Of a stretch of DNA of 64,000 nucleotides, positions 675 through 64,000 are shown in pieces (the first letter of the stretch is position 1; each line of letters opens with the position of its first letter). This DNA comes from Bolinopsis microptera. Taxonomy: Eukaryota. The position numbers and the translations under genes were made by a program. Where the stretch lies: contig NC_087073.1 in the NCBI RefSeq assembly GCF_026151205.1, forward strand, positions 10,138,636-10,202,635. Reading direction: 5' to 3'. The notes under the pieces are model-generated. The model was not told the origin of the DNA, ran no database searches, and saw only the letters and a list, made by a program, of their open reading frames with translations.

Positions 675-1059
675 TCAAAAAGCATTCATATGTTATAACT
701 AATTGCTTGATTTTGCACCAAGTTGACGTGCACCGACCAAAATTTAGCGATGAATCCAGAAAATATAACTTTAATAGGTTGTAGGTAAATTGTTCTGTTT
801 AATATGTTTTAGGAATGTACAGTATTTACTATAAAAGTTTGTCGTCGTATAAACTAATTTTGTTATGAATTTTGTTGTGACTTTTTTGTATCGAATTTTT
901 GGATAAAGTTGATTAATTAAAAATAAATTAATGTACACAAATTTTGCCTTAGATATATGTTTTTTACGTTTTGAATTTTTGACACTTGTTTTTAGATCAT
1001 GAATACGATGTAGTCACATTGAAACGTTGAGTAAACTCCTTTCCCTAATAAGAGCATTT

Positions 1060-19400: not shown

Positions 19401-22400
19401 TCAGAGGAAGCCCACAGCAGAAAGATTAACAAAACGAAAAGTTGTATTTTCAAAATGCTGTCCCATATTCAAATAGGAAATTTTCTAAACACAAATTTGA
19501 CAGATTGGATGAAATTTTTGCCCAGAAACCAATTAGTCAGTCAATCAATGATGATATGAAACTAAATTGAAGTACTGGGAGTCAAAATCCCGAATAAAAT
19601 TGCAAAATCATATTGTCCCAATCTCTGTCCCATTTTCAGTTTTTGAAGATGAAATTTCCAGGACCCCAATTTTACAGTTGTGACTGATTTTTTCATCCGC
19701 AACCAATTAGTAAGTCAACTATAGATGCCAAATGACACGATTGAGGTGCTGGAAGTTAGATTTTGGTCAGAGGAAGCCCACAGCAGAAAGATTAACAAAA
19801 CGAAAAGTTGTATTTTCAAAATGCTGTCCCATTTTCAAATAGGAAATTTTCTAAACACAAATTTGACAGATTGGATGAAATTTTTGCCCAGAAACCAATT
19901 AGTCAGTTAATCGATGATGGTATGAAACCAAATTGAAGTACTGGGAGTTAAAATCCCAAATAAAATTACAAAATCATATTGTCCCAATCTCTGTCCCATT
20001 TTCAGTTTTTGAAGATGAAATTTCCAGGACCCCAATTTTACAGTTGTGACTGATTTTTTCATCCGCAACCTATTAGTAAGTCAACTATAGATGCCAAATG
20101 ACACGATTGAGGTGCTGGAAGTTTGATTTCGGTCAGAGGAAGCCCACAGCAGAAAGATTAACAAAACGAAAAGTTGTATTTTCAAATGCTGTCCCATTTT
20201 CAAATAGGAAATTTCTAAACAAAAATTTGACAGATTGGTTAAAATTTTTACCCAGAAACCAATAAGTCAGTTAATCGATGATGGTATGAAACCAAATTGA
20301 AGTACTGGTAGTCAAAATCCCGAATAAAATTGCAAAATCATATTGTCCCAATCTCTGTCCCATTTTCAGTTTTTGAAGATGAAATTTCCAGGACCCAAAT
20401 TTTACAGTTGTGACTGATTTTTTCATCCGCAACCAATTAGTAAGTCAACTATAGATGCCAAATGACACGATTGAGGTGCTGGAAGTTTGATTTCGGTCAG
20501 AGGAAGCCCACAGCAGAAAGATTAACAAAACGAAAAGTTGTATTTTCAAAATGCTGTCCCATTTTCAAATAGGAAATTTTCTAAACACAAATTTGACAGA
20601 TTGGATGAAATTTTTGCCCAGAAACCAATTAGTCAGTTAATCGATGATGGTATGAAACTAAATTGAAGTACTGGGAGTCAAAATCCTGAATAAAATTGCA
20701 AAATCATATTGTCCCAATCTCTGTCCCATTTTCAGTTTTTGAAGATGAAATTTCCAGGACCCCAATTTTACAGTTGTGACTGATTTTTTCATCCGCAACC
20801 AATTAGTAAGTCAATTATAGATGCCAAATGACACGATTGAGGTGCTGGAAGTTAGATTTCGGTCAGAGGAAGCCCACAGCAGAAAGATTAACAAAACGAA
20901 AAGTTGTATTTTCAAAATGCTGTCCCATTTTCAAATAGGAAATTTTCTAAACACAAATTTGACAGATTGATTAAAATTTTTGCCCTGAAACCAATTAGTC
21001 AGTTAATCGATGATGGTATGAAACCAAATTGAAGTACTGGTAGTCAAAATTCCGATAAAATTGCAAAATCATATTGTCCCAATCTCTGTCCCCATTTTCA
21101 GTTTTTGAAGATGAAATTTCCAGGACCCAAAATTTACAGTTGTGACTGATTTTTTCATCTGCAACCAATTAGTAAGTCAACTCTAGATGCCAAATGACAC
21201 GATTGAGGTGCTGGAAGTTTGATTTCGGTCAGAGGAAGCCCACAGCAGAAAGATTAACAAAACGAAAAGTTGTATTTTCAAAATGCTGTCCCATTTTCAA
21301 ATAGGAAATTTTCTAAACACAATTTGACAGATTGGATGAAATTTTTGCCCAGAAACCAATTAGTCAGTTAATCGATGATGGTATGAAACCAAATTGAAGT
21401 AATGGCAGTCAAAATCCCGAATAAAATTGCAAAATCATATTGACCCAATCTCTGTCCCATTTTCAGTTTTTGAAGATGAAATTTCCAGGACCCAAATTTT
21501 ACAGTTGTGACTGATTTTTTCATCTGCAACCAATTAGTAAGTCAACTCTAGATGCCAAATGACACGATTGAGGTGCTGGAAGTTAGATTTCGGTCAGAGG
21601 AAGCCCACAGCAGAAAGATTAACAAAACGAAAAGTTGTATTTTCAAAATGCTGTCCCATTTTCAAATAGGAAATTTTCTAAACACAAATTTGACAGATTG
21701 GATGAAATTTTTGCCCAGAAACCAATTAGTCAGTTAATCGATGATGGTATGAAACCAAATTGAAGTACTGGCAGTCAAAATCCCGAATAAAATTGCAAAA
21801 TCATATTGACCCAATCTCTGTCCCATTTTCAGTTTTTGAAGATGAAATTTCCAGGACCCCAATTTTACAGTTGTGACTGATTTTTTCATCCGCAACCTAT
21901 TAGTAAGTCAACTATAGATGCCAAATGACACGATTGAGGTGCTGGAAGTTTGATTTCGGTCAGAGGAAGCCCACAGCAGAAAGATTAACAAAACGAAAAG
22001 TTGTATTTTCAAAATGCTGTCCCATTTTCAAATAGGAAATTTTCTAAACACAAATTTGACAGATTGGTTAAAATTTTTACCCAGAAACCAATAAGTCAGT
22101 TAATCGATGATGGTATGAAACCAAATTGAAGTACTGGTAGTCAAAATCCCGAATAAATTGCAAAATCATATTGTCCCAATCTCTGTCCCATTTTCAGTTT
22201 TTGAAGATGAAATTTCCAGGACCCAAATTTTAAAGTTGTGACTGATTTTTTCATCCGCAACCAATTAGTAAGTCAACTATAGATGCCAAATGACACGATT
22301 GAGGTGCTGGAAGTTTGATTTCGGTCAGAAGAAGCCCACAGCAGAAAGATTAACAAAACGAAAAGTTGTATTTTCAAAATGCTGTCCCATTTTCAAATAT

Positions 22401-40050: not shown

Positions 40051-40416
40051 GCATTTGCAAATACATATATGCGGTGAAAGGTTTACAAATAAAAACAGCC
40101 ATTAAATTTAAGATTCGTTTGTGACACATTGTTAAATACAAAGAAATATTATGTAGCAATTCGAATTTTGTTACGTTATCAATATCATGAAAAATAAAAG
40201 CAGCGCGCATCAAACCCAAGCTTTGAAGGGAATGCAAATAACATAGCATAAAAATTGCAACTTATTTTCGAAATTCACATACTGTTCGATAACCTCTATT
40301 CCATATTCTGGTCTTATCAATTGTTTCAAAAACATTCAAGTTCAGTTTGGATCGGAGTCACGTTCTTGAGAACAGTGGGTTATAACGTTTGGGGATTCCA
40401 TAGATTTGTTTACGCT

Positions 40417-43400
40417 TCATCGTCGGAATTGATTGTTAGGATTGTTCAGGAAAGGAGGTGCGCCAGCGTTAAATGGCGGTGGAGCCCATTGAAGAGGTGG
40501 TCCGTTTGGTTGGGTAAAGTTTATAGCAGCCGGAACGTTCCCAAATTGCTGGGCGGGGCCAGGAGGAGGTTGACTGAATGGCATCGGTGGCGGCTGCATC
40601 ATCGGGTTGGTTTTGTAAGTTTGAACCTGTTGAACCTGTTGCTGAACTTTCTGGTAAGTGTTAGGGCCCGGAGCTTGTGGAGGCTGTGGAACATTCCCAT
40701 AAGTGCTTGGTTTTGTGTTGACCATCTCCTTAACACCTTGCAACGATTTCAATAGATCGTTTATTTGGTTAGATTGCTGTCCAGTACTCGGCCTTGCCTC
40801 GCTCCTAGCACTACTATAGGTGTCAGATCTAGAAGGTCGGGATGAAGAAGAAGAAGAAGATGAGGGGTTATAGTTGGAGCTTGTGTGACCATCCCGGGAG
40901 GAACTATGGCTGGAGGAACTGTGTCCGTGAGAAGAACTGTGACCAGGGTTGTGAGAGGAAGTGTGAGCAGATCCGTGACTAGTTCCATGCGAGGAGCTGC
41001 CATATGATGAGCCGTGTGATGAGCTCATGTGGGAAGGGCCTCCATGGGAAGAGCTGGGGTGACTCGAGCTGGGGTGACTCGAGCTGGGGTGACTCGAGCT
41101 GGGGTGACTCGAGCTGGGGTGGCTGGAGCTGGGGTGGCTGGAGCTGGGGTGGCTCGAGCTACCGTGAGTTGAGCGAGGCCTATCATGAGAGGATCGAGAG
41201 TAGGAGTCTCGAGATGAGCTGCGTTGAGAGGTATACTCCTGTACAGGAGCTGTGGGAGGCTGTTTGTGGGACACCATCAGAGGATTGAAAGAAGGCAGGC
41301 TAGGAGCTGAAGAATATTTCGGGAAAGTCTGTAATTGTGGTGGCGCTAACGAAGGGGGAGCTGGTCTCGGTTGATTTGTTATCAAATTCGTTATTTGTCC
41401 ATTAGCTTTCATCTTCTCGAGATTTTCCTTTATCTTCGCTGCGTTGGAAGCATTTTGTGCTTCAATGAGAGCCGCCTTGTTGGTAGCTTTGGAAGACATT
41501 GTTTTCACAGTGTTTTGAAGTTGCTTCACAAGAGCTGATTTCAGATCAGCTGCAAGTTTTTCAGTGAGCGATTCTCCAAGCATACCTCCCAAATTCTGAA
41601 CATTTCCTTGCATAAGAGCCTTGATAGCGGCTTCTTGTTTCGCAGTTTGCTCTCTCAACATCTTCAGCTCCATTTCTTTTCCAGGGGAGCCTGCTGTAAC
41701 CTTCCGTTCAGTAGATCGTGACTTAGGTCTCCTCCTTTCCCTGGAATGTGACCTCCGTGCTCGTTTAGGAGATCTTGAGTTTCTCCTTCGATCTGGTCTC
41801 CTCGGAGATCGTCTGGGAGAACGTCTGTTTCCTAGAGAATGGCGAGAAGGTGGTGACCTGCGAGGAGAGGGACGTTTGTGAAGAGGTGAACGTTTGGGAG
41901 GACTGGGTCGTTTAGGCGAGCGGGGCTTAGGAGAGGTCCTTCTGACGGTCCGTTCAGTGATCGGTTTAACTGGAGATTTGGACTTCCGCCTTGGGGACCG
42001 GCTCTTACGTCGGGTGGTAGGACTACTTCGTCTTCGAGGAGATCTAGATTTTCTTCTTGGAGACCTGGATTTTCTTCGGGGTGATCGAGTACGTCTCCTA
42101 GGTCGTTCAGGTCGGTCAGGTCTTCTTGCAGGGCTTGTTCTTACAGAAGTTGATGGTCCCCCTGTTGAGGGTCCTGGTCCTTTCCTGGTAGCGGAACGTG
42201 AGCGAGTTCGTCTTCTGCGATCTGAAGACCTTCTCTTTAAATCGTCAGACTTAATATTTACAGATATCGTCCCCGAACCGGATACGACTCTCCTGTCCCT
42301 GTCACCAGCCCTTTCTTTGTCTGAAAATTGGAGTTTTCAATGGATAAATAGCCATTACACCACTCAATCTTGTTAACGAGTAGAATTTGATAAGGGCAGC
42401 AGCTCTGATATTTTCATTCTTGGTGATTATTGTGGATAGAAGTCATATTTTAATCTAATTTTAATCCCTTTAATAATTGGGAATAATTTACCTGATCTAG
42501 GTTTGCTTTTGTCCTCGGGTGAAGTGTGACGGGGTCTGATGCCAGCTGGTCGACTGCTAGGTTTCAGTTGCTGCTGTCTCATCTTACGCAACACTGCGTT
42601 ATCTTTCTTGGGCTGGTGGAATATCAAAGTAAGTTGCATGTCTAAGATAAGATGAGAAAAAAATCTTACTGAGACTCAGCATATCTCATATGAACGTAAT
42701 TCAATGTTCATGCTTGATTTTGTGAGAAAAACAGTTAAACTTATTTTTCATAAAATCTATCGACGAATAAATATCTCTACTATAATTCAGAGAATTATTT
42801 CTGTAGGATGTATGTACGACCGCCCACGTGCAAATTCGGTAAAAAGCAAAAGGTTGCAAAGTAACCATGGTAACGACCAAAAAGGGTTGTTACACGCACG
42901 TGCACGTGCAAAGATTGTTAGAACGGCATTTTTATCGGTTTTGTTGATATTACGCTGTGTTTAGTGCGAGCAACATTTTAATCGGCTGTATCTTCGGTTG
43001 TGTAGGATATTTTTGATTAAACTTACTAACAAAAAATACTATTAGCCCAGACTATATCAATGGACGGGAGGATTAAAGTACTTTCATACACACCAGCATG
43101 CTCATTGATGGCTTAAAATGAAGCTAAGACATACTCCTATCAGATCCACCATAAGTTAGATACCATAATAATCATTAAATGTGTCTAAAATGAGGAAGCT
43201 TTGACAAGTGCGAGTGGTTTTGGCAAATTTTGGTATAAAATGGGCCCTGAGATCATATTTTTCTCATTAAAATCACATATATCACGAATATTTATGTGTG
43301 TTGGGTGTATCCTCATTGGTATCAACCATTTCAATCATCTAGAGCAGCTTTCCTGATTCTTTATCTCATGAAAATGGGCAAAAAAGCTCATAAATAGTCC

Positions 43401-46400
43401 AAAATCGGTCATTTTCGCCGCTTTAATAACCTCATTCCTGGCACCCAGAACACTTTGGGTACTCAAAACATGATTTTTCGGATACCTCAGACCCCTAACT
43501 AGCACATGGAGCCAGAAAGAACAGCATGTAGGGACTTCTAAATTTTCATGGTTGAGAACCCAATGTCACACTATTCGTTCATTAATCCTGCTTTCACTGT
43601 TCCCTGTGACCACGGGTTTTCTAGTACATTATAAAGTAACACATTTAAGTTGTGACTCACTCTTGACGTTACAATCTCTTTGTTATGGAGCTTATAACCA
43701 TTCAGTTTCTGAATCGCTACCCCGGCTTCACTCTCTTGGGACATCGTGACGAGACCGAAACATTTAGCTTCTTTAGCGTTGGGATTCATCACAACTTTCG
43801 CACTCATCACCTGCAAAGTACGCCGATCAAAAAGAAGCTCACAAGACGTCAATATCTAATAATACCAGACAAAACAATATCACTAAATAATTTTACTGAT
43901 ATGTAACACCATTGGTCATATAATTATAACAAGCAAATAATTTATCATGAATGGTAAATTATGCGGACAGAAGCAACAATTTACCTTTCCGTAGAGTCCG
44001 AAACAGGTTTTGAGATCAAGAGCACGAGTTTGTTTAGTAAGGTTGCTGACCCATATCATCTTCATAATATCCGGATGTCTGAAATGAAACAATTTGAACA
44101 AAAGGGCAGGGAATTGTTATTTTTAAACTAGCCATCCGCAAAGAGCATACAGCTTTTATTTCTAAATGATATTTACAGTCAATCATTGCGGACGGCTACA
44201 ATGATATATCCGTAAGAAGTTCTTAAAATGTTTTCTCAAATAAAAATCACGGTAACAAGATGAATGATTAACAGTGCATTCGCGATTAAAACTACAGACT
44301 ACTTTATTAATAAACAGCTCAAGTAATAGTCGAGTAAATTGCTGCTCATTAAACGAAATTTTGACTTTCACCCAAACCAATTAGTAGAACTGCATCAGAG
44401 TTAGTTGAGCGTATCCGGGGCAAAAACCAACTGCAGCCAAGATATAGAGCGATCGATCAAATTTTAACACAAATCAAAATTACCCTTCTTCCTCCTTTTC
44501 GTCAGAAGGCTTATCCTCCTTTTTTGTAGCATCCCCTGGAGCTTCCTCGGCTTTAGCTTCTGCCGGCACAGACTCCTCAGCTGTCTCCTTGGTACCAGTT
44601 TCCACGATGGCAATCTCAGACTCCTCTATCTGGAATGAGATCATCTCCTCCTTGTTGTCGTCACCATCTCCGTAGTCCAGCTCGTCACCACCAGCCTTCG
44701 TCGTTCAGAAGAGAGCTATCCGGTTCTGTGGTGCCATCTTTACTGGCTTCTTTAGTATCAACATCAAAATTTTGATTGTCCTGTACAGCAGCAGGATCAA
44801 CGTCAGAGACTAAGGAGCCTTCAGCTGAGGGAGCTTCAGTCACCACCACTGCTGCATCCACAGCTTCAGTGACGGTTTCAGTCTGTTCAGCCTTTGGATC
44901 TTCAGATTTTAAGTCGGTCGTGACACTGTCAACTTTTTCTGGAGCATCCTCAGCTGAAGTCTCCTCAGCTACTGGATCTGACTCGGTAGCTCCACTCTGA
45001 CCAGGTTCGTCTACCATTTCTTCCTTAGGAGGTTCCTCCGATTCTTGGGCTTCCTCTTGTTCGATAGATTTAGTTTCTGAGAAATAGAAGCTTCAACATT
45101 TAATTCAAGAACTTAATCTTGAACACCAAATACGTTACCTGTTCCGTTTTACCGGCAAGTTGAATTACGTCAGTCAAAATAGGTTCGTTCGTGTCGTCTC
45201 ACTCTATCTAGTTGATATATCCATCTACGCTTGAAGTAGGAAGCAACCAAATAGTCCAAGTGCAAGTTGCCCAACTCGTAGTCCAGCAACATTTTTGACA
45301 TTATACACACTTTGTAGTGGTTTGTCATAAACCCGGCGGCCGGCAACATACGGTGAGATGTCATTTACAATTGGTAAACAAATAGACGTTCTCCAGATAT
45401 ATAATTTAGGGAGTTACAACGAATACATTTTCCTTATTAAATCAGTTTAAAGTTTTGTTAACTTTCATCAAGTCTACAATTTCTTATGACTATAACAAAT
45501 AGGCGATTATTCTGTGGCTAAATCCCCCAAATTACCGATATTTCAAAACAGTAAAAGGAGGGACCACCTCATTGGAGAAAAAAAAGTATACAAAACCGTC
45601 AATAGAATGTTTAATTGGACAGCCAACATTTTAATAGTTTGAACAAAGCTCAGATGTTCAAAAACAGGGTATAGTCGAACGGCTTAGTTGATTGTCACTT
45701 TTGCGAACGGTAAACCAATAACTGTATTGAACAACAGACATCGTAAATCAAGAGCTACCAGAATTGATTATTTTCATTGCATATATATGAACAAACAGGG
45801 GAATTACGATGAATGTAGACCGGAAACAACAGAGTTACCTAAGGTATTAGCTTGAAAGCAACACGAGGTTCTCTTAATGTTAAGCCATCATAACACACAG
45901 TACATACCCGGTTGTTAACAGTTATTTAGTTCTCTATTCTATCAACAAGGCAAGGTGGCCATTGTAAACAGATAAAGCCCATTTCAGACAAATAAAGGGA
46001 CTTCTCAATAATCAAAAAAATTAAAAAGGAAACAAAACGACGCGAATTTCTCCAAATAGTGGAAGTTAGAATAACATACCTTGTGTATCGTCGTCCTCAG
46101 GATCGTCCAGATCTCCAATAACGGTATCCACAATGTTTTCCAGGCCTTCTATGTTCTCCTCCCACTCATCAAGACCATCATCAACAGTGGTTTCTACCTC
46201 TTCAGTCTGGCTGGTGGTTTCCTCATCTTGTATCGCCTGAACATTAGAAGTTGAACATCAAAGAGTTGTTTATATAATGGTGCGACTATTTTACACAATA
46301 ATAAACAGTCTTGTAAAATCAAATATTAATTTTATTCGATTGAGCGTCTCTGCTTCATCAGAAGGAAATCCAGACTTAGGCAAGGACAACTTTTTAAAAG

Positions 46401-54101: not shown

Positions 54102-55789
54102 CCTGTATTAGTTAATTAACATTATTATGTTTATGATTTAAGTTATTAGTGGAAACCAATTCAGAAAAGTCCATTTTATTATTTCGTAAGTACACCATTA
54201 ATGCTAGGATAAGTCACCATAAATTTAATATTGTATTGGGGGTTATATTAATATTAATATGTTTGTTTAGTACTATTGACATATTCGTTGCTATTTTTCG
54301 TGCTCTGCTAATTGCATCACTTGATTTGATTGAACGTATGTATTATTTGAATGACCTTTTCATTTTGTATTGTGATATGGAATGATGGTGCCCACACAGA
54401 GTCTTACATCTCGATACAAGGAGGAGTATTGCCAATAACTGTTAGTCATGAAAGGGGCACCACAGAAATTTAGATTTCATCACAACATTCAGCCACGATA
54501 CATAGCTAAAGAAGTGTTAATCTCAAAATTTTCTTTGCTCATATTAAAATAAAAAGACACTTCTTCCAGTCAAAGGAAGAAGCTTAATAACTTGAAAGAG
54601 GACGGTTGTGTATAACTTGATGTGAATGATTTGTGTTATAAATTTTTTTTTTTTTTTTTTTTTGAAATAAATTTTCGTGCACATACAGAATGAATGGTTA
54701 ATAATTTAATATATATGTAGACCAAGGTCTGTGCACGGGATGCTTCCTGGAAGAATCCAGTTCTTTTAGCGGGGCACCCTACCTAAAGCCAAATTGAGAT
54801 ATAATAATCATATTCCTAGAGAAATAATCAGAAATCGAATAACAATCAAATAATATGATATATAGGAGTAGTAACCATATTTACTATGCAAAATGCCCCA
54901 ACCACATAGTGTAAATTTATTTAGAATTCAAATTCCATATCATCATTAAACCTCAATAGTCAATATAATAGCCCAAGCAAAATTAAGTAACTTCTTATAT
55001 ACCTTACTGTCATACTACAAATTAATTAAACATTTGAAATCTGTTAACCAGAGAATAAATTTCTAAACCTAATGCAAGTGAAATAATTTAGATGCAATAA
55101 TGAATGCCTAATGTGAGTATCATCTGTCAATGTCCTTGTAAAAAAGTCTGTAAAAGAGATATGAGTAACTAATATAGAAGAAAAAACAGGAAGTTGTCGT
55201 CTGTTGAAAAATAAATAAAATACCTAGAATATAAATTAGAATATAAAATAACATTCAGTCAATGTGTCGTCAATAAACTGTACAATTATCAAATGTTAAA
55301 ACTGGGTGATACAGTCACCAAAAATAAATACTAAGTATAATAAGTAAATAAATTAAATGTGGTCTATAAAACTACCACTAGGTATAATAGGTCAATAAAT
55401 TAAAAGTGGTTTATAAAACTACCACTGCACTGTGCGAACCCTTTCTCCAGTTAAAACATGTCAGTCATGTGCAAAATCAATCAAAATGGTAAGGTGGTAA
55501 AAAAGGGAAAATCCTTTCGATACATCAATTATATATGCCTCAGATTTAAAAGAATTAGAAGATACTTAGTTATCGTCGACTATGATTGCAGTGTAAAATT
55601 TGTCATATGGTCTGTTGTTATAGATGAGAGTAGCTGTTTCTTATACGAATCACTAAGGCTTTTAACATCGGGCAGATTTCGTAGATCTGTTGGAACATTA
55701 TTCCAACATTTTGCCCCCAAGTATTGAAAGTTTTTATGTGATGTTGATCTATTAACATATAGGTTGCAGCTTTCGCCGCTCCTACTACC

Positions 55790-57520
55790 GGTTCTTTTGC
55801 GATAGTCAAAACGCGACAACTAGCGCTGGATGGCGACAACTAGCGCTATCCAGCGCTAGTTGTCGCCATCCAGCGCTAGTTGTCGCTATCCAGCGCTGGA
55901 TAACGCTGGCCAGCGCAAAATATATATCTTCGATAATTGTCGCTATCCAGCGCTAGTTGTCGCCATCCAGCGCTAGTTGTCGCCATCCAGCGCTAGTTGT
56001 CGCTATCCAGCGCTAGTTGTCGCTGGCTATGCGACACTGTCGCACGCGATAGTTTGCGATGGCCAGCGCAACTGGCCATCGCAGAAAACAGTTCGATAAC
56101 TAGCGCTGGCCAGCGCTGGATAGCGACAACTAGCACTGGATGGCGACAACTAGCGCTGGCCAGCGCTAGTTGTCGCTATCCAGCGCTAGCCAGCGCTGGC
56201 CAGCGCTATCCAGCGCTAACCAGCGCAAAATATCAATTTTTGATAAATTTTCGATAAATGTTCGATAAATGTCGCGACAAATAGCGCTGGATAGCGACAA
56301 CTAGCGCTGGCCAGCGCTAAGCGATAGCCAGCGCTGGCCATTGATATCCAGCGCAAAATTTTTGCGCTATTACTCGTCAGCTAGCGCTAGCCAGCGCTAA
56401 CCAGCGCTAGCCAGCGCTAGCTGACGAGTAATATCGCAACTATATTGCGCTGGCCAGCGCTGGCTGACAAGTAATACTAATATCGAGCGTGCTAAATCAC
56501 TCTACAGTAGTTCTTCGAGATTGTTCTAAAAGGGCCCCCGATGGTTGTAACCAACTTCAATCGATGTATTTTCGGACGCTAATTCCGAATCAAACCCCAT
56601 GGGCCCATGACATATAATAGTGTTAAAATGCTCTCCTGACGAGATATTGGCGAAAAACTGTACATGTATCGATCACGTGATATGACCGTATAAGGAAGTT
56701 AGTCTAATTTCTCGTTATTGTTAGGGTTTCAGCATATGTTTTTGTTAAGGATTGGGTTAGGGTTAGGGTTAGGGTTGGGATCAGATTAGAGGGTCAGGGT
56801 TTCGAAAAGTCGTTCAGAACCAGCTAGAGTCAGAGAATGGGTTAAAAAAGTCACGTGACAGTCGAGTGTAAAGTGATTAATCATCATCCGAGTAATATCG
56901 CAAGTATATGATTTTGATACATTGCGCTGGCTAGCGCTGGCTAGCGCTGGCTAGCGCTGGATAGCGAAAACTAGCGCTGGCCAGCGCTGGCTAGCGCTGG
57001 ATAGCGACAACTAGCGCTGGCCAGCGCTGGCTAGCGCTGGATAGCGACAACTAGCGCTGGCTAGCGCTGGCCAGCGCTAGCTGACGAGTAATAGCGCAAA
57101 CATTTTGCGCTGGATATCGATGGCCAGCGCTGGCCAGCGCTGGCTATCGCTTAGCGCTGGCCAGCGCTAGTTGTCGCTATCCAGCGCTAGTTGTCGCTAT
57201 CCAGCGCTAGTTATCGAACTGTTTTCTGCGATGGCCAGTTGCGCTGGCCATCGCAAACTATCGCGTGCGACAGTGTCGCATAGCCAGCGACAACTAGCGC
57301 TGGATAGCGACAACTAGCGCTGGATGGCGACAACTAGCGCTGGATGGCGACAACTAGCGCTGGATAGCGACAATTATCGAAGATATATATTTTGCGCTGG
57401 CCAGCGTTATCCAGCGCTGGATAGAGACAACTAGCGCTGGATGGCGACAACTAGCGCTGGATAGCGCTAGTTGTCGCCATCCAGCGCTAGTTGTCGCGTT
57501 TTGACTATCGCAAAAGAACC
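55790..57520 (+). mobile_element. 1731-bp foldback-type non-autonomous DNA transposon with ~650-bp inverted arms built from 20-bp tandem subrepeats, flanked by 8-bp target-site duplication CTACTACC; inserted in the LINE ORF2
   Basis: Termini GGTTCTTTTGCGATAGTCAAAACGCGACAACTAGCGCTGG ... CCAGCGCTAGTTGTCGCGTTTTGACTATCGCAAAAGAACC are perfect reverse complements. The flanks ctactacc (55782-55789) and ctactacc (57521-57528) are direct repeats. The arms are arrays of ccagcgctagttgtcgc[ct]at on the left and its complement on the right. Removing the element and one duplication copy joins LINE ORFs 57505-59814 and 55580-55819 in frame (...SGGSR|SGESCNLY...). Confidence 0.75.
56753..56778 (+). repeat. 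Telomere-like motif (TTAGGG) x3.5 in the unique centre of the foldback element
   Basis: gggttagggttagggttagggttggg. A further ttagggtttc lies at 56721. Confidence 0.6.
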
Positions 57521-59814
57521 CTACTACCTCCTGATATGTAACTAAATTTGTTCATAAAGTTTGTAGGACAATTGTCATGGATGATTCTAAACATATAATT
57601 TGACAGATGGAGTTGTCGTCTAAGATGGAGTGGTAACCATTTCATGTCTCTATAAACATTAAGGCTGCTCTCTGTTTGTGGAACGTTGAGAGCTATTTTG
57701 GCTACCTTTTTGTACAGAGTGTCAAGTTCAGCAAGTTTTGTCTTGCCAGCTCTACAATAGATCGTGTCTAAATAATCGAATTGTGGCAACATAAGTGCAT
57801 TGGCAAACATTTTCCTATATTTAATGGGTAGCAGTGCTTTACTTCTATACATGGCACCAATTCTCTTCATGACCTTCTTAATAATATAATCTACATGGCT
57901 TTTGAAGTTTAATTTACTATCTAGAATGAGGCCAAGATATTTTGTCTCTTTGCACTCCTTGATTGTGAAAGTTACCTCATTACATTCAATGGTTAATTCA
58001 TCATGTTGATCAACAGAATCAAACAATAGGAATTCAGTCTTCTTTTCATTGAGTGATAATTTATTTACACTGAGCCATTTAAAGATTGTCATAAGTTCTA
58101 TTTTCATGTTTATAAATGTGCTTCTGCAGGTTTGATCAAAGAATAGTGCACCATCATCTGCAAATAGAAAGGGCTTAGATAGGTTACAGGCATAAATGAT
58201 GTCATTTATGAAGATACTAAATAATATAGGCCCAATGATGCTTCCTTGTGGTACACCACTCAGAACTTCTAAAAATGAACTTATTTTGCCATTGATCCTA
58301 GTGCATTGATATCTACAAGATAAGAAGTTCTTAAACCAGGTTAAAGCAATGCCACCAATTCCATAATATGCCAATTTTTGAAGCAATATTTCATGATTCA
58401 CTGTGTCAAAGGCCTTCTTAAGATCAAGAAAGATGATTCCTGGTTTATAAGACTTAGATTTACTCATATATATTTCGTCCATCAGATCGTACATCAAATA
58501 AGTTGTGGAGTGATTTTTCCGAAAGCCATATTGATGCCGGATGAAAAGTTTGTTCTCTTCCATGTAATCAGTGAGTTGCTTGCCGACAAAGTATTCTATA
58601 AGTTTTCCTACAAGTGGAAGGATGGATATTGGCCTGTAATTATTAGGATCATCTTTCATTCCTGCCTTATGGATGGGAGTAACTCTAGCTTTTTTACAAA
58701 GGGTTGGTACAACACCTGTATTAAGGCTCAAATTGACAATATGGGTCAGTGGCTCAACTATGTGTGGTACAGCTTGCTTAAGTAAAAATAGAGGCACATC
58801 GTCATATGAGGCCTTGTCATTCTTGAGCGTTTCGACATACATTAGGATATCAGTTTCATTTATTTCTTGGAATCTATCAAATGAGATGTTAGAAGTTCTA
58901 GGAGGTAACAAATCAGTAAAACTAACTCTTTCAATATTGGGGGCCTGATTTTGTAATCTTGATCCAACATTTGCAAAATGAAAGTTAAATAGCTCAGGAT
59001 CATTCTCATTGATAGTTTGACAATTAGTTGTACCAGGGGTCATATTTGATGCCAGTTTGATAGTTTTCCATACCCCTTTAAGATCATTCTTGGCACTTTT
59101 AACTTGTAGATCATCGATTACATTAGCCTTTTTGCAGGTTTTAGCTAATTTATTTCTAATATTTCTCTGAATCTTGTAGCAATCCCAGGCCTCATTACAC
59201 TTTATACATTTGCTACATATACCACATTTATTGCAATTTCCATTGTCTCTCTTATCCTTCTTTTTACGGAATTTCTTTAGAAGAAAATGTGTATGATTAA
59301 TGGCATTTAAAAGTTCAGTAGAAGGTTTATGTATGAACTTTTCATGCCTTTCTATGGTCTTGCAAGGGAAGAAGGTTGCATATGCCTGTTCAATATGATG
59401 ACAAAGGCCAGCAGTGATAGCTTCAACATCTGTACTTTCCAATAGTGGACTGTAATCAGAACAGGTATCTAGATAGTCTAAGAATTGTTTAACATTACGT
59501 TTACAATGATTTCCAGGGGTCGACCGAGGGCAGGATTTTCGACCGAGGCCGAGGCCGAGGAAAATACAGTTAGTTAAGACCGAGGCCGAGGACAACCGAG
59601 GTTTCTTTTTTTGACCGAGGCCGAGGCCGAGGCCGAGGAGTGCAAATTTTGACCGAGGCCGAGGCCGAGGCCGAGGAATTTTGGCAGAAAAATTGTTGGG
59701 AAAAAGGGCATTGTTTATTAGGAAAAGCGCACTGTACCTAATCAGATTGTACTGTGTACTATACTGTGTACTGGTACACACGTTACAATCATTATGAAGG
59801 GGCAAGTTCGCCAA
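57505..59814 (-). CDS. LINE ORF2 fragment (reverse transcriptase domain), 769-aa open frame
   Basis: Palm and fingers motifs are present: PISILPLVGKLIEYFV, GFRKNHST, FLDLKKAFDTVNHEILLQKL, LSGVPQGSIIGPILFSIFINDI, FADDGALFF. The C-terminal tail has HVDYIIKKVMKRIGAMYR...LYKKVAKIALNV, as in CR1/L2-type elements. Confidence 0.8.
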   Translation of the reverse strand: MANLPLHNDCNVCTSTQYSTQYNLIRYSALFLINNALFPNNFSAKIPRPRPRPRSKFALLGLGLGLGQKKKPRLSSASVLTNCIFLGLGLGRKSCPRSTPGNHCKRNVKQFLDYLDTCSDYSPLLESTDVEAITAGLCHHIEQAYATFFPCKTIERHEKFIHKPSTELLNAINHTHFLLKKFRKKKDKRDNGNCNKCGICSKCIKCNEAWDCYKIQRNIRNKLAKTCKKANVIDDLQVKSAKNDLKGVWKTIKLASNMTPGTTNCQTINENDPELFNFHFANVGSRLQNQAPNIERVSFTDLLPPRTSNISFDRFQEINETDILMYVETLKNDKASYDDVPLFLLKQAVPHIVEPLTHIVNLSLNTGVVPTLCKKARVTPIHKAGMKDDPNNYRPISILPLVGKLIEYFVGKQLTDYMEENKLFIRHQYGFRKNHSTTYLMYDLMDEIYMSKSKSYKPGIIFLDLKKAFDTVNHEILLQKLAYYGIGGIALTWFKNFLSCRYQCTRINGKISSFLEVLSGVPQGSIIGPILFSIFINDIIYACNLSKPFLFADDGALFFDQTCRSTFINMKIELMTIFKWLSVNKLSLNEKKTEFLLFDSVDQHDELTIECNEVTFTIKECKETKYLGLILDSKLNFKSHVDYIIKKVMKRIGAMYRSKALLPIKYRKMFANALMLPQFDYLDTIYCRAGKTKLAELDTLYKKVAKIALNVPQTESSLNVYRDMKWLPLHLRRQLHLSNYMFRIIHDNCPTNFMNKFSYISGGSRVLLR
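59521..59690 (+). repeat. (CCGAGG)n / GACCGAGG-rich microsatellite cluster
   Basis: gaccgaggccgaggccgagg blocks with short spacers. Read on the minus strand this gives the PRPRPRS / GLGLGLG segment of the LINE ORF N-terminus, which is artefactual. Confidence 0.7.
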
Positions 59815-60177
59815 GAGTCAGGAGTGGGCATGCCCAGGCAGGATCTGAGTAATTGACAGTGAAATTTGAAATATTCTATCAGAAGCGTGCACGTGGTGAG
59901 ATGGATGGTGTCGGTGCATCAGGTACAACCAAACACTCGGGCTCCGGCAGCCATCTTGTAATCAGTTCATAATTTGTTGTTTTGTCTTCGTAGCTGTTAG
60001 TGTTGCGTCAGTAATTAATTATTGCTATTTGCCCATTTTCTTTATCCCTACAATTACATTTAAGTTTCCTTTTCTAGCAAGTTGTTCAGATTGCAGTGTC
60101 TTAACACATACTGAGTTTAGACTTCAGTGAATCTGGAGAATATTGCACTAGTTACATTTAACATACGTTTACGGGGC

Positions 60178-60420
60178 CCCCTTTCTTGTGTAAAAGTGAC
60201 CGTCACTTTTGATGACACATCTGGCCCTTTTGGGTCACTTTTTTTTAACAACGTCGACTTTTGGTCACTTTTTTTCACGTTGAGGCCGCTTTTTGGTCGT
60301 TTCTGGTCGCCTTTTAAATTTTGGTCGCTTCTGGTCGCTTCTAGTCGCTTCTGGTCGCTTTTTGGTCGCTTCTGGTCACCTTTTAGGGTTTATGTGACAT
60401 GTCGCTTTTACACAAGAAAG
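60178..60420 (+). repeat. Small IR-bounded element (22-bp imperfect inverted termini) enclosing a (TGGTCGCTTC)n decamer array
   Basis: ccctttcttgtgtaaaagtgac ... gtcgcttttacacaagaaagggg has one mismatch. The interior is tggtcgcttctggtcgcttctagtcgcttctggtcgctttttggtcgcttctggtcacc. It may be a MITE or the subterminal repeats of the adjacent hAT element. Confidence 0.4.
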
Positions 60421-60546
60421 GGGTCAAAATATCCAGGGTGCGTTTTGTTTAGACTTGTTAGAAGAATTTTGATGACTAATTGTGCCATCTGGTATCAAAA
60501 TTCACGATAATTAACAAATTCACGTGCCTTAGGCTAAGAAGCTAGG

Positions 60547-63500
60547 ATGTCTCAATCAAAGAGAAGTGTTTCCGGCGTATGGCAATTCTTCTCAGTACCA
60601 GATCCCGGAGCGAATCCACATTTGGCAGAATGCAAGGAGTGCTCTGCTTCGATCAGACGAGGAAAACCAGGTCAATCGGCCAAGGACTACCAGGTTTATA
60701 ATTTTATGTTTTTTAGTAAGTTACTTAAGTACTTAGAGGTATTGCTGGACTAGCGCGACTAATGTGCAGTTTCAACTTTTATTACTAATCTCTCAATTGA
60801 TCGTGTAATTAAGCTGTAATTGATTATGGAACCTAACATAAAATGTATAAACAATGAGTACAACTATAAAAGTAACGATTAACGAATCAATTTTAAGCTC
60901 GAGTTTGAATTTAACTTATCCAGGTAACGAGTTTGTGGGATCATCTAAAACATAAGCATCCCTTAAAACACAAGGAAGCAACTGCCATACGTGATCAACA
61001 GAAGGCAAAAAGACAGAAGTCTCAAGAAGCCGAGGCTGAGCGGAGATCCATGTATCAACTAACAGCAGCTAATCAGCCCACGATTGGACAAGTCTTGAGC
61101 GGCGCTACATTTACGAAAATGACGGCGGAACGTCAGAAAGATCTAGAGAAGTTGCTCTTAAAATGGATGACAGATCAGATGCTTCCCTACACGACTGTTG
61201 AGAATGAGCATTTTCAACATTTTGTTCACGGTTAGAATCATTTTAAACTTTAAATGAAGTTTATTTACTAAACAGTTCTATTCTAGGTTCGAGCTGTGAT
61301 GACTCCAAATTAAAATTCCAATATGTTCGTGATGATACTTTATAAAAGTGACTGCTGTTCAGTATACTAGTGGCAGATTGTTAATAACTCGTAATCATGG
61401 TCATTTGCGAATTGGTTCAGATAATCTGATATCCGACTCATTCAGGTTTGAACAAGAAGTTTTCAATTCCATCAGAAAAGGTGATACGCACAAAACTGTT
61501 TCCAGACTTGTATAACAGAGTACAGTTTAAACTAAAGAGTTTCATCGATGACAACCTGAAAGGAGCTGACTACAGTCTTACCTGTGATGTTTGGTCGTCA
61601 AAAGCTTTGGATTCCTATCTCGGAGTCATTATACACTTTGTAACAAACGATTTCCAAAGAAAAGTAGTTGTTCTACGTTGCCTTCCATATAACCGCGCAC
61701 ATAGCGGTAAGTTCTAGCATTGAATCTAGAAAATTCATTTTATATCTAATCTGTATCAAAGCTAGCTTCGTGAATCGTGATCAAACTCAGCAATGTCTGC
61801 CATTTCTGGCCAATGCTCAGCAGAGCACGCTCATGTTTTATATAGTAGAAAATGTTGACCGTTACTGTTAGCTGGCTGCCTACTGCCCGCAGGGTGTCTA
61901 TTTTCTAACGACTAACATGACAAATTACTTCACGCAGGTGACTCAATCAAGACTAATGTGTCATTTGTTCTGCGCTCGTGGGGTTTGTCGGAAGATAAGC
62001 TGCATTGCGTCATTAGCGACACCGCATTGAACATGAAGAAAGGACTGTCGGCCTGGACTTGGATAGGATGTTTTCTTCACATCCTGAATTTGATTGTGAA
62101 GAATTCAATATTTACACAAAGCGGAGTGCAAAGATTGATCAAGAAGATCAAAAACTTGATCAAGGAGTTCAGAACCCCTACCGGTGAGAGTCAACACATT
62201 TACATAAATTACATTCTTATTATTCAAAATTTTCATTAAAATGTGGCACTGAATTTAAATCATTTTAGCGACTTGCATTTATTATTTTTTAACTATGATA
62301 TATCAAACTATAGACTATACCCGAATGCAGGGAAGCGTCTACTTAACGAGAACCAGATAAAAGATTCAACGCTACTACGACCTGTGGACACGAGGTGGAA
62401 TAGTTATTATATGATGTTTGACGTGTTCCAGAGCAAAAAGGCAGCTATCACCGTAACAGCTCAAAATACGGACTTATCGTTGTCTGCATCACAACAGGTT
62501 AGTTGATAATAGCTCTTTAGACTCATGTCTCAGTCAGCACCATTTCACTCAGAACCATCTCACTCAGAACCAGTCAGAACCAGTCAACAAGTTTAAAAAT
62601 TAATCCTCAGTATACTGCAGTTTGAGTATTGATGATTAAAACTTTTCAGATGACTCCTCACGATTGGGACCTTCTTACCAAGGTTATAGTCCTATTGAAG
62701 CCATTCTTCATCACAACTAAAGCTGCTGAGGGGGACCGAGTTTCTGTTTCGGAGGTCATTCCAAACATTAAAAAACTGGATTACGAGATCAGAAGTATGT
62801 CACTGAGTGGATTAGGAACTCTAAAAGCTACGCTGCTCTCTGAGATGGAACGGTATAGTTTAAAATTTGTTATTTGTATGAACTATGACTTGCCTTACCG
62901 ACTATTATTGAAACTTATTACTCTCTGAATTTTTAGCAAAACGTACGTAAATTTGAACCTAATGATTAGGGCCAAAGACAACATGCTTCCAAATTTTAAA
63001 TTGAATTAGGGCCGAATGTCTAATTAGCACCTCAGCAACTGTTTGACTTCTTCACCAACATGTAATTTTTCCCTCAGGTACTTCGTAACCAAGTACGATG
63101 TAGAGAAGAAGCCCCAATACTCAATAGCGACTCTTTTAGACCCACGCTTTAAAGCAGCAGCCTTCTCCACGAAAGTCAATGCCGCACTAGCTAAGCAGAT
63201 ACTGATTGACGAGATTTGTACCAGGATTCAGTCTTCACCACCGCAAGTTCCGGTAACTGATGTTTCTGATGACCCTTCAATAGTACAGTCTTCTGGCTCA
63301 ACATGGGCAGCAATCCTGGATAGTACCTCACAGTCTGAAGAAGACGACGAATTCGAAGAAAATAGTGAGAAGATAAGGAGGGAAGCTAACAGATACTTAA
63401 AAGACTCACGAGTTGATTTATCATTTGAACCATTAGTTTACTGGAAAGCTAATAAGCAGAGATATCCGAACCTTGCTGAGTGTTCAAGGAAATATCTATC

Positions 63501-63771
63501 TGCGCCGGCGAGTTCAGCAGCACCAGAAAGATTGTTTTCTACAGCAGGGCACATCCTGAAGTTAAATCGCCTCAGCCTTAAGCCAACAAACTTTGAGGGG
63601 TGCTTGTTTCTCAAAAAGAACATCGGAACATTTGGGGACAACTTCGGCCCCTGTCCAGATGAATTCGAAGCCCCAAATAAAGATGACTGTCCCCCTTCTG
63701 AGCTGTGCACAGACGATTATTCTGATTCAGAGTGCTCAGATATTGTAATTTCATCAGACGATGAATCTTAG
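60547..63771 (+). CDS. hAT-superfamily transposase with N-terminal BED zinc finger and C-terminal hAT dimerisation domain; 7 coding exons, 674 aa, apparently intact. Exons 60547-60693, 60924-61230, 61446-61706, 61938-62183, 62331-62497, 62650-62852, 63078-63771
   Basis: Exon 1 MSQSKRSVSGVWQFFSVPDPGANPHLAECKECSASIRRGKPGQSAKDYQ is a BED finger (C-x2-C...H-x-H continues in exon 2 as VTSLWDHLKHKHP). Middle exons hold hAT core motifs (YSLTCDVWSSKALDSYLGVIIHFV, CFLHILNLIV, VDTRWNSYYMMFDVF). The last exon has LLDPRFK and PLVYWKANKQRYPNLAECSRKYLSAPASSAAPERLFSTAGHILKLNRLSLKPTNFEGCLFLKKN. All six introns are GT-AG with phases 0,1,1,1,0,2 and the total is 2025 nt. The listed ORFs 60933, 61448, 61958, 62243, 62629 and 63043 are the exon frames. 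Confidence 0.75.
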
Positions 63772-63880
63772 ACTATGATATTTTTAGTTTTGTGTCCTGG
63801 TCAATTGGTCGTTTTATTTTCAATTTTACAAATTCGTTTACATTAACCTCTGTAAGTCTAGAAAAATTCCCAAAATTTCA

Positions 63881-64000
63881 ACAAAAATCCTCGGTCAAAT
63901 CCTCGGTAAAATCGTCAAATTTCGCAGAGGCCGAGGAATTTCGAATCTATTTTTGACCGAGGCCGAGGCGAACCGAGGAATTGTCCTCCTGACCGAGGCC
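63881..64000 (+). repeat. Second GACCGAGG-type repeat cluster; starts with inverted copies (cctcggtc) then direct copies
   Basis: cctcggtcaaatcctcggtaaaatcg...tttttgaccgaggccgaggcgaaccgaggaattgtcctcctgaccgaggcc. It runs to the window end. Confidence 0.6.

What the first reader, a model, noticed from the sequence alone, without database searches (positions are those of the whole stretch)
55580..59814. LINE ORF2 split by a 1.73-kb foldback DNA transposon; in-silico excision restores the reading frame
Element 55790-57520 has perfectly complementary 40-bp termini and is flanked by the 8-bp direct repeat CTACTACC. Deleting the element plus one repeat copy fuses the 769-aa RT ORF to ORF 55580-55819 in frame and restores the conserved CR1/L2-type C-terminal tail. 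This is a nested insertion with a recoverable empty site, and it dates the DNA element as younger than the LINE copy. The foldback arms are themselves arrays of a 20-bp satellite-like subrepeat.
Basis: seen in the sequence. Interest (0 to 1): 0.65.

Follow-up and report, generated by a model that had tools for sequence, protein, structure and literature searches.

The report
Foldback transposon nested in ctenophore LINE
A 1.73-kb non-coding "foldback" DNA transposon has jumped into the reverse-transcriptase gene of a LINE retrotransposon in the comb jelly Bolinopsis microptera. Seven other copies of that LINE show the uninterrupted target site, so this is a real but ordinary nested insertion.

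Summary

- **The element.** Window 55790-57520 (1731 bp) has arms that match at 311 of 312 outer bases. It is flanked by the exact 8-bp repeat CTACTACC. It has no coding capacity.
- **The arms.** They are built of 10-bp phased units (NNAGCGNNNN, periods 10/20/40).
- **The empty site.** Removing the element plus one repeat gives an 831-aa ORF that aligns without gaps (707/721) to an intact 991-aa ORF2. Seven independent LINE copies carry one CTACTACC with 32/32 identical bases on each side.
- **The host.** A neighbouring ORF is identical to an NCBI protein of the ctenophore Bolinopsis microptera.

- The first ~100 codons of the "769-aa RT ORF" are the terminus of a second nested element, a hAT that starts at 59514.
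- The LINE copy also carries a 22-bp frameshifting deletion.
- The LINE fragment at 1-677 covers only the 3' UTR, so it cannot serve as an empty site.
- A 9-bp duplication cannot be excluded.

The superfamily is unresolved. The 5'-GG termini, the 8-9-bp duplication and the long inverted repeats fit Merlin better than hAT or P. A complete Merlin copy of a family present in this species has the same architecture, but its terminal sequence differs. No second foldback copy was found.

The parts
54663..55789 (-). 3' part of the LINE copy: ORF2 C-terminal tail (about 55583-55789) and about 0.9 kb of 3' UTR. Includes a 22-bp deletion at about 55609/55610 that shifts the frame of the last ~20 ORF2 codons.
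   Evidence: blastn to the intact copy: L001 4816-5986 = window 55789-54663, 93%.
55782..55789 (.). Left copy of the target-site duplication CTACTACC (possibly 9 bp, CCTACTACC, from 55781).
   Evidence: Present once in seven other LINE copies.
55790..56480 (.). Left arm of the foldback element. It has a ~25-bp unique terminus GGTTCTTTTGCGATAGTCAAAACGC, then arrays of 10-bp phased units (AGCGCTGGNN / AGCGACAACT; periods 10, 20, 40) with local palindromes such as CCAGCGCTGG. GC is 53%.
56481..56899 (.). Central non-inverted domain (GC 41%). Positions 56481-56878 are a copy of a dispersed ~390-bp repeat with degenerate (TTAGGG)n and two CACGTG palindromes. It has no ORF with a family hit.
   Evidence: 79% identity over 400 bp to L006 21118-21486, plus an inverted partial copy next to it. 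Pfam found nothing significant.
56900..57520 (.). Right arm of the foldback element, the reverse complement of the left arm. The outer 312 bp match at 311/312. The inner part has rearranged subrepeat arrays. GC is 56%.
57521..57528 (.). Right copy of the target-site duplication CTACTACC.
57521..59513 (-). Middle part of LINE ORF2, covering the linker and the reverse-transcriptase domain. It corresponds to P0001 residues ~250-912.
   Evidence: blastn L001 2831-4824 = window 59513-57520, 98.6%. RVT_1 E=1.4e-35. Protein alignment.
59514..64000 (+). A second nested element. It is a hAT transposon that truncates the LINE. Its terminus is CAGGGGTCGACCGAGG, with CCGAGG subterminal repeats at 59530-59690 and 63880-64000 and transposase exons at ~60547-63771. 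Its right end lies beyond the window.
   Evidence: LINE homology ends at 59513. Dimer_Tnp_hAT E=1.8e-20 on 63043-63771. Repeat matches.

Best explanation
The element at 55790-57520 is a non-autonomous class II (cut-and-paste) transposon of the foldback structural type. It inserted into ORF2 of an already resident LINE copy in the Bolinopsis microptera genome.

Shown:
- It is an insertion. Its ends are near-perfect inverted repeats, it duplicated 8 bp (possibly 9) of target, and it encodes nothing recognisable.

Inferred:
- It was moved in trans by a DDE transposase that makes 8-bp staggered cuts.
- That transposase recognises the ~25-bp unique termini together with the many 10-bp, helically phased AGCG(CT)-containing subrepeats, which would act as reiterated, partly palindromic binding sites. 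[quoted passage not shown]
- My preferred superfamily is Merlin (IS1595-like), at roughly 0.4. The element meets all three published structural hallmarks: terminal 5'-GG, an 8-9-bp duplication, and long TIRs. An autonomous Merlin family present in this species also has the same layout: a GG terminus, an 8-bp duplication, and a ~25-bp unique end followed by 11-bp tandem subrepeats.
- The central 0.4 kb is a copy of an unrelated dispersed repeat, either captured or secondarily inserted.

The confidence given below applies to 'real foldback-type DNA-transposon insertion', not to the superfamily.
For: - Insertion and empty site. Seven LINE copies have a single CTACTACC and identical flanks, and ORF2 is colinear across the junction.
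- Inverted repeats 311/312.
- Subrepeat phasing and motif exclusivity.
- No coding capacity: no protein homologue of any of the eight longest six-frame ORFs; no Pfam family.
- Foldback class definition and its polyphyly: PMC3169594, PMC4079207.
- Reiterated transposase-binding sites in long TIRs: PMC3688188.
- Merlin hallmarks (TIR 24-462 bp, terminal 5'-GG, 8-9-bp duplication) and Merlin presence in ctenophores: PMC8101967.
- Merlin transposases in B. microptera: P0268, and P0296, which is identical under four NCBI protein accessions.
- A complete Merlin copy at L013 2742-6306: 5'-GGCAAC terminus, 8-bp duplication ATTTAGTA, and TIR of at least 186 bp built of 11-bp CATTAAGACAA repeats.
Against: - Only one copy of the foldback was seen. 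No other copy turned up in the window, in about 210 kb of related ctenophore contigs (the Merlin loci L012-L022 were not searched), or in the JGI metagenome, GTDB or IMG/VR scans. Mobility as a family and the true duplication length therefore rest on a single insertion.
- The terminal 25 bp do not resemble the one Merlin family examined. The only shared feature in sequence is a GACAAC hexamer in the subrepeats (chance about 0.05), and its orientation is mixed in the foldback arm.
- No transposase was linked to the element.
Confidence: 0.93

Rival explanations
1. It is a Mutator/Phantom-type foldback element, the superfamily to which most described foldback families belong. In that case the true duplication is the 9-bp CCTACTACC and the two termini are offset by one base.
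For: - The base at 57520 is ambiguous. The overlap of the two blastn segments on the intact LINE is 9 bp.
- Most foldback families are assigned to Mutator, with 8-10-bp (mostly 9-bp) duplications and TIRs made of short tandem repeats (PMC4079207; PMC3169594).
- Asymmetric terminal bases are known in Tm1.
Against: - An 8-bp duplication gives perfectly symmetrical termini and is the more parsimonious reading.
- No MULE or FLYWCH coding sequence is associated with the element.
- Nothing was tested in the Bolinopsis genome for this superfamily.
Confidence: 0.2
2. It is a hAT- or P-superfamily non-autonomous element, whose subterminal binding-site arrays have been expanded into foldback arms (as in Galileo within the P superfamily).
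For: - An 8-bp duplication is typical of hAT and of the P element (my own knowledge).
- hAT elements are present and apparently young at this very locus.
- Galileo shows that a P-type element can acquire foldback arms (PMC3688188, PMC3573991).
Against: - The termini begin GGTTC. The window's own hAT begins CAGGGGTC, which is the hAT-typical CAG start (my own knowledge of the consensus).
- There is no similarity between the foldback termini or subrepeats (AGCGCTGG) and the hAT terminus or subrepeats (CCGAGG).
- Galileo copies are bounded by 7-bp duplications.
- The duplication CTACTACC has T at position 2 but C, not A, at position 7 of the hAT target consensus nTnnnnAn (my own knowledge; a single site, so weak).
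Confidence: 0.2
3. It is not a mobile element. Instead it is a palindromic artefact of long-read assembly, or a local inverted duplication formed during repair or replication inside the LINE.
For: - Near-perfect long palindromes can arise as sequencing or assembly chimeras.
- Only one assembly and one copy were seen here.
Against: - The insert is unrelated in sequence to the surrounding LINE.
- It sits exactly between two copies of an 8-bp target that is single in seven other LINE copies.
- It has a non-palindromic 0.4-kb centre homologous to a repeat found elsewhere.
- Its two arms differ by indels in their inner parts.
- A chimeric read would produce none of these features.
Confidence: 0.03

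Closest known systems
Merlin superfamily (IS1595/IS1016-related DDE transposons; Feschotte 2004 as summarised in PMC8101967). In particular the Merlin family resident in Bolinopsis (L013 2742-6306; protein cluster P0230/P0296/P0297).
   Same: - Terminal 5'-GG, an 8-bp (8-9) target duplication, and long TIRs within the published 24-462-bp range for the near-perfect part.
- The resident Merlin copy has the same layout: a ~25-bp unique end followed by 10-11-bp tandem subrepeats.
- Merlin is documented in ctenophores and is intact and multi-copy in B. microptera.
   Different: - It has no transposase gene.
- Its terminal sequence and subrepeat sequence differ from the one resident family examined. 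Only a GACAAC hexamer is shared.
- Its arms make up about 75% of the element and are full of local palindromes.
Foldback elements of the Mutator/Phantom group (Drosophila FB, Tetris, Tm1, FARE).
   Same: - Long composite TIRs built of short tandem repeats, a non-coding middle domain of variable origin, and mostly non-autonomous copies (PMC4079207, PMC3169594).
- From my own knowledge, Drosophila FB arms also grow from 10-bp to 20-bp to 31-bp units, much like the 10/20/40-bp periodicity here.
   Different: - Those families give mostly 9-bp duplications. Here 8 bp is the parsimonious reading.
- No MULE or FLYWCH transposase is linked to the element.
- The host phylum is different.
Galileo (P superfamily foldback-like element of Drosophila).
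   Same: Very long, internally repetitive TIRs. Reiterated transposase-binding sites in the repeats were shown experimentally (PMC3688188), and this is the model for the mechanism proposed here.
   Different: Galileo copies are bounded by 7-bp duplications. Autonomous Galileo copies encode a THAP-containing transposase. There is no sequence similarity.
CR1/L2-group LINEs (the host element of the insertion).
   Same: - ORF2 with an apurinic-type endonuclease and a reverse transcriptase.
- A conserved C-terminal tail of the form ...WLP...F.Y.GAK.WN..P..LR...F...KK.LL, which I recall as L2/CR1-like.
- A relative's ORF1 shows a weak GDSL esterase match. The esterase ORF1 type is described in CR1 and L2 (PMC4120745).
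   Different: - ORF1 carries an ALKBH2/3-like dioxygenase domain that is not among the ORF1 types listed in PMC4120745.
- No phylogenetic placement against reference reverse transcriptases was done.

Membership tests
Foldback-type DNA transposon (structural class) | Long terminal inverted repeats that make up most of the element | tested here: met
   The arms are about 690 and 620 bp of 1731 bp. The outer 312 bp match at 311/312.
Foldback-type DNA transposon (structural class) | Arms composed of short tandem subrepeats or multiple domains | tested here: met
   Periods of 10, 20 and 40 bp. AGCG is phased at 10 or 20 bp.
Foldback-type DNA transposon (structural class) | Target-site duplication and evidence of insertion | tested here: met
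   Exact 8-bp CTACTACC on both sides, and an empty site in 7 LINE copies.
Foldback-type DNA transposon (structural class) | Multiple dispersed copies in the genome | tested here: not met
   No second copy was found in the window, in about 210 kb of related contigs, or in the metagenome, GTDB or IMG/VR scans. The B. microptera genome itself could not be searched, so this is absence in a small sample only.
Merlin superfamily | 8- or 9-bp target-site duplication | tested here: met
   8 bp, with 9 bp possible. Criterion taken from PMC8101967.
Merlin superfamily | TIRs with a conserved terminal 5'-GG, length 24-462 bp | tested here: met
   Both termini read GGTTCTTTTGCG... and the near-perfect TIR is about 320 bp.
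Merlin superfamily | DDE_Tnp_IS1595 transposase, or termini shared with an autonomous Merlin element | tested here: not met
   The element has no ORF with any family hit. The termini of the one resident Merlin family examined (L013, GGCAACTTGAACG...) do not match. Other Merlin families of this genome could not be examined.
Mutator/Phantom foldback elements | 8-10-bp (mostly 9-bp) target-site duplication | tested here: inconclusive
   8 bp is the parsimonious reading. 9 bp is possible if the termini are offset by one base.
Mutator/Phantom foldback elements | MULE (with or without FLYWCH) transposase in autonomous relatives | not testable with these tools
hAT superfamily | 8-bp target-site duplication | tested here: met
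hAT superfamily | Short TIRs starting 5'-YARNG, and termini related to an autonomous hAT | tested here: not met
   The foldback starts GGTTC. The hAT 2 kb away starts CAGGGGTC and shares no sequence with it. The consensus itself is from my own knowledge.
P superfamily (P, Galileo, 1360) | 7-8-bp duplication, and THAP-transposase binding sites or termini shared with an autonomous P-like element | tested here: inconclusive
   The duplication length is compatible with the P element but not with Galileo's 7 bp. No autonomous partner could be sought.
CR1/L2-group LINE (host element) | ORF2 with an apurinic-type endonuclease and a reverse transcriptase | tested here: met
   P0001: Exo_endo_phos E=3e-7 and RVT_1 E=1e-35. 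The window copy retains only the reverse-transcriptase part.
CR1/L2-group LINE (host element) | Placement within the CR1 or L2 clade by reverse-transcriptase phylogeny | not tested
   No reference set was available. The support is indirect only: the C-terminal motif from memory, and a weak GDSL esterase match in a relative's ORF1 (27 bits, below the 32.9 cut-off).

The most novel reading that the evidence does not exclude
The element is a Merlin-derived foldback. That would make Merlin a third DNA-transposon superfamily, after Mutator/Phantom and P, to have converged on the foldback architecture, here in a ctenophore. Both the autonomous resident Merlin and this non-autonomous element would then carry helically phased 10-11-bp subrepeat arrays as reiterated transposase-binding sites. 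The 10-bp palindromic units (CCAGCGCTGG) would imply binding by a dimeric DNA-binding domain.
Probability: 0.35. Interest if true: 0.35.

Novelty: new member of a known kind. Interest (0 to 1): 0.22.

Why it matters
For annotating the Bolinopsis microptera genome, this locus is a clean three-layer nest: a LINE, a foldback and a hAT. It gives a relative order of transposon activity and a well-defined consensus-quality copy of a previously undescribed foldback family.

Foldback elements matter in other animals as drivers of inversions and as seeds of satellite DNA (PMC2775673, PMC4079207). Recording one in a ctenophore, together with a resident Merlin family that has foldback-like arms, helps repeat annotation and bears on how often this architecture evolves.

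It does not change any general understanding. Nested transposon insertions with recoverable empty sites are routine.

Tried and rejected
- **Metagenome scan.** I scanned the JGI metagenome contigs for the terminal 20-mer TTTGCGATAGTCAAAACGCG. The single hit is a chance match in a GC-rich bacterial contig.
- **Other collection scans.** I scanned GTDB genomes and IMG/VR for two adjacent subrepeat units. Neither gave a match.
- **Pseudo-protein search.** I concatenated the eight longest of the element's six-frame ORFs into one query and searched the 5.8-billion protein set, hoping gene callers had called ORFs on other copies. There were no hits.
- **Exact look-ups.** Window ORFs 55997-56257 and 57505-59814, the HECT ORF and the NCBI Merlin protein P0268 are not on record, so the B. 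microptera assembly could not be reached.
- **Sampling related contigs.** About 210 kb of related ctenophore contigs, reached through LINE and HECT loci (L001-L011), contain no second foldback copy and no AGCGCTGG arrays. The Merlin loci (L012-L022) were fetched later and were not searched for foldback sequence.
- **Orthologous locus.** In a related Bolinopsis-like assembly (L005, L006, ~92% identical) homology stops at window ~54143, before the LINE. It therefore gives no presence/absence information for the foldback.
- **Other LINE fragment.** Window 1-677 is only 3' UTR and does not reach the insertion site.
- **Rfam.** Dozens of matches to plant miRNA-precursor models fall on both strands of the arms. 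All but one (MIR474, 56.3 versus 48 bits) are below threshold. I rejected them as generic hairpin matches caused by the local palindromes.
- **tRNA.** There is no tRNA-like sequence, so the centre is not a tRNA-derived SINE.
- **Published Merlin contigs.** The Beroe, Pleurobrachia and Mnemiopsis Merlin contigs in the supplements of PMC8101967 do not contain the foldback terminal 9-mer or its subrepeats. FASTA line breaks could hide a match.
- **Shared hexamer.** GACAAC occurs in both the foldback and Merlin subrepeats. I judged this too weak (chance about 0.05, mixed orientation) to count as evidence of cross-mobilisation.
Full report
**1. Observation**

Window 55790-57520 is a 1731-bp element.
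- Its two ends are reverse complements of each other. The first 95 bases are perfect, there is one mismatch in the first 320, and a gapped alignment gives 311/312.
- The arms continue inward with indels to about 56480 and 56900, 92% over 615 aligned bases.
- The element is abutted on both sides by CTACTACC, at 55782-55789 and 57521-57528. The chance of this at two fixed positions is 4^-8.
- Tandem Repeats Finder finds periods of 10, 20 and 40 bp throughout both arms.
- Written in register, the arms are strings of 10-mers of the form NNAGCGNNNN, such as CTAGCGCTGG, CCAGCGCTGG and ATAGCGACAA. AGCG recurs at 10- or 20-bp spacing in 24 of 32 (left arm) and 30 of 34 (right arm) successive intervals.
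- AGCGCTGG (31 times) and CCAGCGCT (29 times) occur nowhere else in the 64-kb window.
- The arms are 53-56% GC against 37% for the window.
- Many units are themselves palindromic (CCAGCGCTGG). This explains the 434 inverted-repeat pairs and a cloud of meaningless hairpin matches to plant miRNA models in Rfam.

**2. Is it an insertion?**

Deleting the element plus one repeat copy (1739 bp) joins the two minus-strand ORFs into an 831-aa ORF.
- A search with that protein found an intact 991-aa ORF2, P0001. It is 98% identical and has endonuclease and reverse-transcriptase domains.
- The reconstructed protein aligns to P0001 at 707/721 with no gap, reading ...FSYISGGSRSGESCNLY... straight through the junction.
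- At the DNA level, the intact copy L001 matches window 59513-57520 (98.6%) and 55789-54663 (93%). The two segments overlap by 9 bp on L001.
- The reconstructed 200-bp site aligns ungapped at 99.5% to two independent copies.
- Seven copies from different genomic contexts (L001, L003, L007-L011) each have exactly one CTACTACC, with 32/32 identical bases on each side.

It settles that the 1.73-kb sequence entered this LINE copy after the copy was made.

**3.

- **LINE homology stops at 59513.** From 59514 the sequence is the terminus of a hAT transposon. It starts CAGGGGTCGACCGAGG and carries CCGAGG subterminal repeats, which recur at 63880-64000. Its transposase exons lie at 60547-63771, with a hAT dimerisation domain at E=1.8e-20. 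The first ~100 residues of the '769-aa RT ORF' are therefore fortuitous read-through of hAT DNA. The endonuclease half and ORF1 of this LINE copy lie beyond the hAT, outside the window.
- **The LINE copy has a 22-bp deletion.** It sits at about 55609/55610 and shifts the frame of the last ~20 codons. Excision therefore restores colinearity but not an intact gene.
- **Window 1-677 is not a usable comparator.** It is the 3' UTR of another copy (L001 5295-5990) and does not reach the insertion site.
- **The duplication may be 9 bp.** The base at 57520 is C, and so is the base preceding the target. A 9-bp duplication CCTACTACC with termini offset by one base is therefore possible. An 8-bp duplication with perfectly symmetrical GGTTC...GAACC termini is the more parsimonious reading.

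**4. Host and setting**

- The 980-aa HECT ORF at 48457-51399 is identical to NCBI XP_063673803.1 of the ctenophore Bolinopsis microptera.
- The LINE family is young. Five loci in one ENA assembly encode the identical 991-aa ORF2, on copies ~99.4% identical to L001 over up to 5.9 kb.

**5. Anatomy of the element**

- Each end has a ~25-bp unique terminus, GGTTCTTTTGCGATAGTCAAAACGC, followed by subrepeat arrays.
- The non-inverted centre (56481-56899, GC 41%) is 79% identical over 400 bp to a repeat found elsewhere in a related genome (L006 21118-21486). There it sits next to an inverted partial copy of itself. It contains degenerate TTAGGG runs and two CACGTG palindromes. The middle domain is therefore a captured or secondarily inserted copy of another dispersed repeat.
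- None of the eight longest six-frame ORFs of the element has a protein homologue, the six scanned against Pfam have no family, and there is no tRNA-like part.

**6. Mechanism**

Shown:
- Insertion with an 8-bp (or 9-bp) staggered-cut signature.
- Near-identical inverted termini.
- No coding capacity.

Inferred:
- The element is non-autonomous and is moved in trans by a DDE transposase.
- The 10-bp phasing puts the AGCG cores on one face of the helix. By analogy with Galileo, the subrepeats would be reiterated binding sites that give the transposase its specificity. [quoted passage not shown]
- The near-identity of the arms is compatible with a recent insertion. It could also be maintained by intra-element conversion, so it is not a reliable clock.

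**7. Superfamily**

Foldback is a structural class, not a lineage. Most described families are Mutator/Phantom with 8-10-bp (mostly 9-bp) duplications, and Galileo belongs to the P superfamily (PMC4079207, PMC3169594).

Against it, the termini start GG, unlike the CAG start of the hAT 2 kb away, and the two elements share no sequence.

Merlin is defined by terminal 5'-GG, 8-9-bp duplications and TIRs of 24-462 bp, and it occurs in ctenophores (PMC8101967). I tested this lead as follows.
- I took Beroe ovata Merlin proteins from that paper's supplement and used them as a profile.
- The profile found DDE_Tnp_IS1595 proteins in B. microptera: P0268, and a 315-aa protein listed under four NCBI protein accessions.
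- A complete copy of the family (L013 2742-6306, 3565 bp) has 5'-GGCAACTTGAACG... termini, an 8-bp duplication ATTTAGTA, and TIRs of at least 186 bp at 98% identity. These TIRs consist of a ~25-bp unique end followed by tandem 11-bp CATTAAGACAA units.

The architecture is therefore the same as the foldback's, and it is present and apparently active in this lineage. The terminal sequences do not match, however. The only sequence in common is a GACAAC hexamer in the subrepeats (chance about 0.05, orientation mixed), so cross-mobilisation by this particular family is not supported.

My estimates are Merlin about 0.4, Mutator/Phantom about 0.2, hAT or P about 0.2, and other or artefact for the remainder.

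**8. What failed**

- No second copy of the foldback was found anywhere I could look.
- The B. microptera assembly itself could not be reached with the available look-ups.
- Family copy number, the target logo and the autonomous partner all remain unknown.

**9. Verdict**

This is a correct and carefully read observation of an ordinary phenomenon.
- It is a new family of a known kind of element.
- The hint that foldback architecture has arisen within Merlin in ctenophores is of modest interest to specialists.
- Interest is scored at 0.22.

The most unusual thing met on the way is outside the finding. ORF1 of this LINE family carries an ALKBH2/3-like dioxygenase domain (see the items noticed in passing).

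Noticed in passing
L001 340-1950 (also L007-L010 ORF1, and L004 1063-2829). Not in the window, because the ORF1 part of the window's LINE copy lies beyond 64000.: ORF1 of this LINE family carries an AlkB-type 2OG-Fe(II) dioxygenase domain. Pfam 2OG-FeII_Oxy_2 gives E=3e-18 and 1e-19, and the best solved relatives are human ALKBH3 and ALKBH2 at E about 1e-13. The HxD motif (HSDDE), the second His and the RxSxTxR motif all align. A relative's ORF1 also has a weak GDSL esterase match. The ORF1 classification in PMC4120745 lists no oxygenase type. Two literature searches found AlkB only in orchid Ty3/Gypsy elements (PMC9289625). A nucleic-acid demethylase encoded by a recently active LINE may be undescribed and deserves its own follow-up.
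   Followed up: partly
window 59514-64000 (+): A hAT transposon is nested in the same LINE copy. Its terminus is CAGGGGTCGACCGAGG, with CCGAGG subterminal repeats at both ends of the visible part. A multi-exon transposase gene lies at ~60547-63771 and has a hAT dimerisation domain (E=1.8e-20). The right end and the second target-site copy (expected ATGATTTC) lie beyond the window.
   Followed up: partly
L013 2742-6306 (ENA ERZ25073835); NCBI XP_063678510.1 and three other B. microptera accessions: This is an apparently active Merlin (IS1595-like) transposon family. The identical 315-aa transposase is listed under four NCBI protein accessions of B. microptera. The complete copy L013 comes from a related ENA assembly. 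It has foldback-like TIRs built of 11-bp CATTAAGACAA tandem repeats and an 8-bp duplication. Three further small ORFs lie upstream of the transposase and were not examined.
   Followed up: partly
window 56481-56878; L006 21118-21486 and ~21640-21945: A dispersed ~390-bp repeat contains degenerate (TTAGGG)n and two CACGTG palindromes. It forms the centre of the foldback and, in a related genome, an inverted pair of its own. Its nature (MITE, SINE or other) and its ends were not determined.
   Followed up: partly
window 1-677 (+) and 54642-54662: Window 1-677 is the 3' end of a second copy of the same LINE family (3' UTR only, 96.6% to L001). The nested copy ends in ...TTTCA followed by A21, whereas the other copies continue differently after the same point. 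The 3'-tail structure of this LINE was not resolved.
   Followed up: no
window 40081-54143 versus L005/L006 (ENA ERZ25073835): The orthologous single-copy region in the ENA assembly is only ~91-93% identical to the window, gaps included. The LINE ORF2 DNA, by contrast, is 98.6-99.5% identical between the two sources. This could reflect constraint on an active LINE lineage, a mixed sample, or recent transfer between Bolinopsis lineages.
   Followed up: no
L006 21956-22630 and 20370-20800: The related genome holds further long-TIR or MITE-like elements. One has 44-bp perfect TIRs (ATAGTCAGTGTAATAAGGG...) around a 0.6-kb body. There is also a stretch of AATTTAGTC-type short inverted subrepeats. 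Foldback and MITE-like structures appear to be common in these ctenophore genomes.
   Followed up: no
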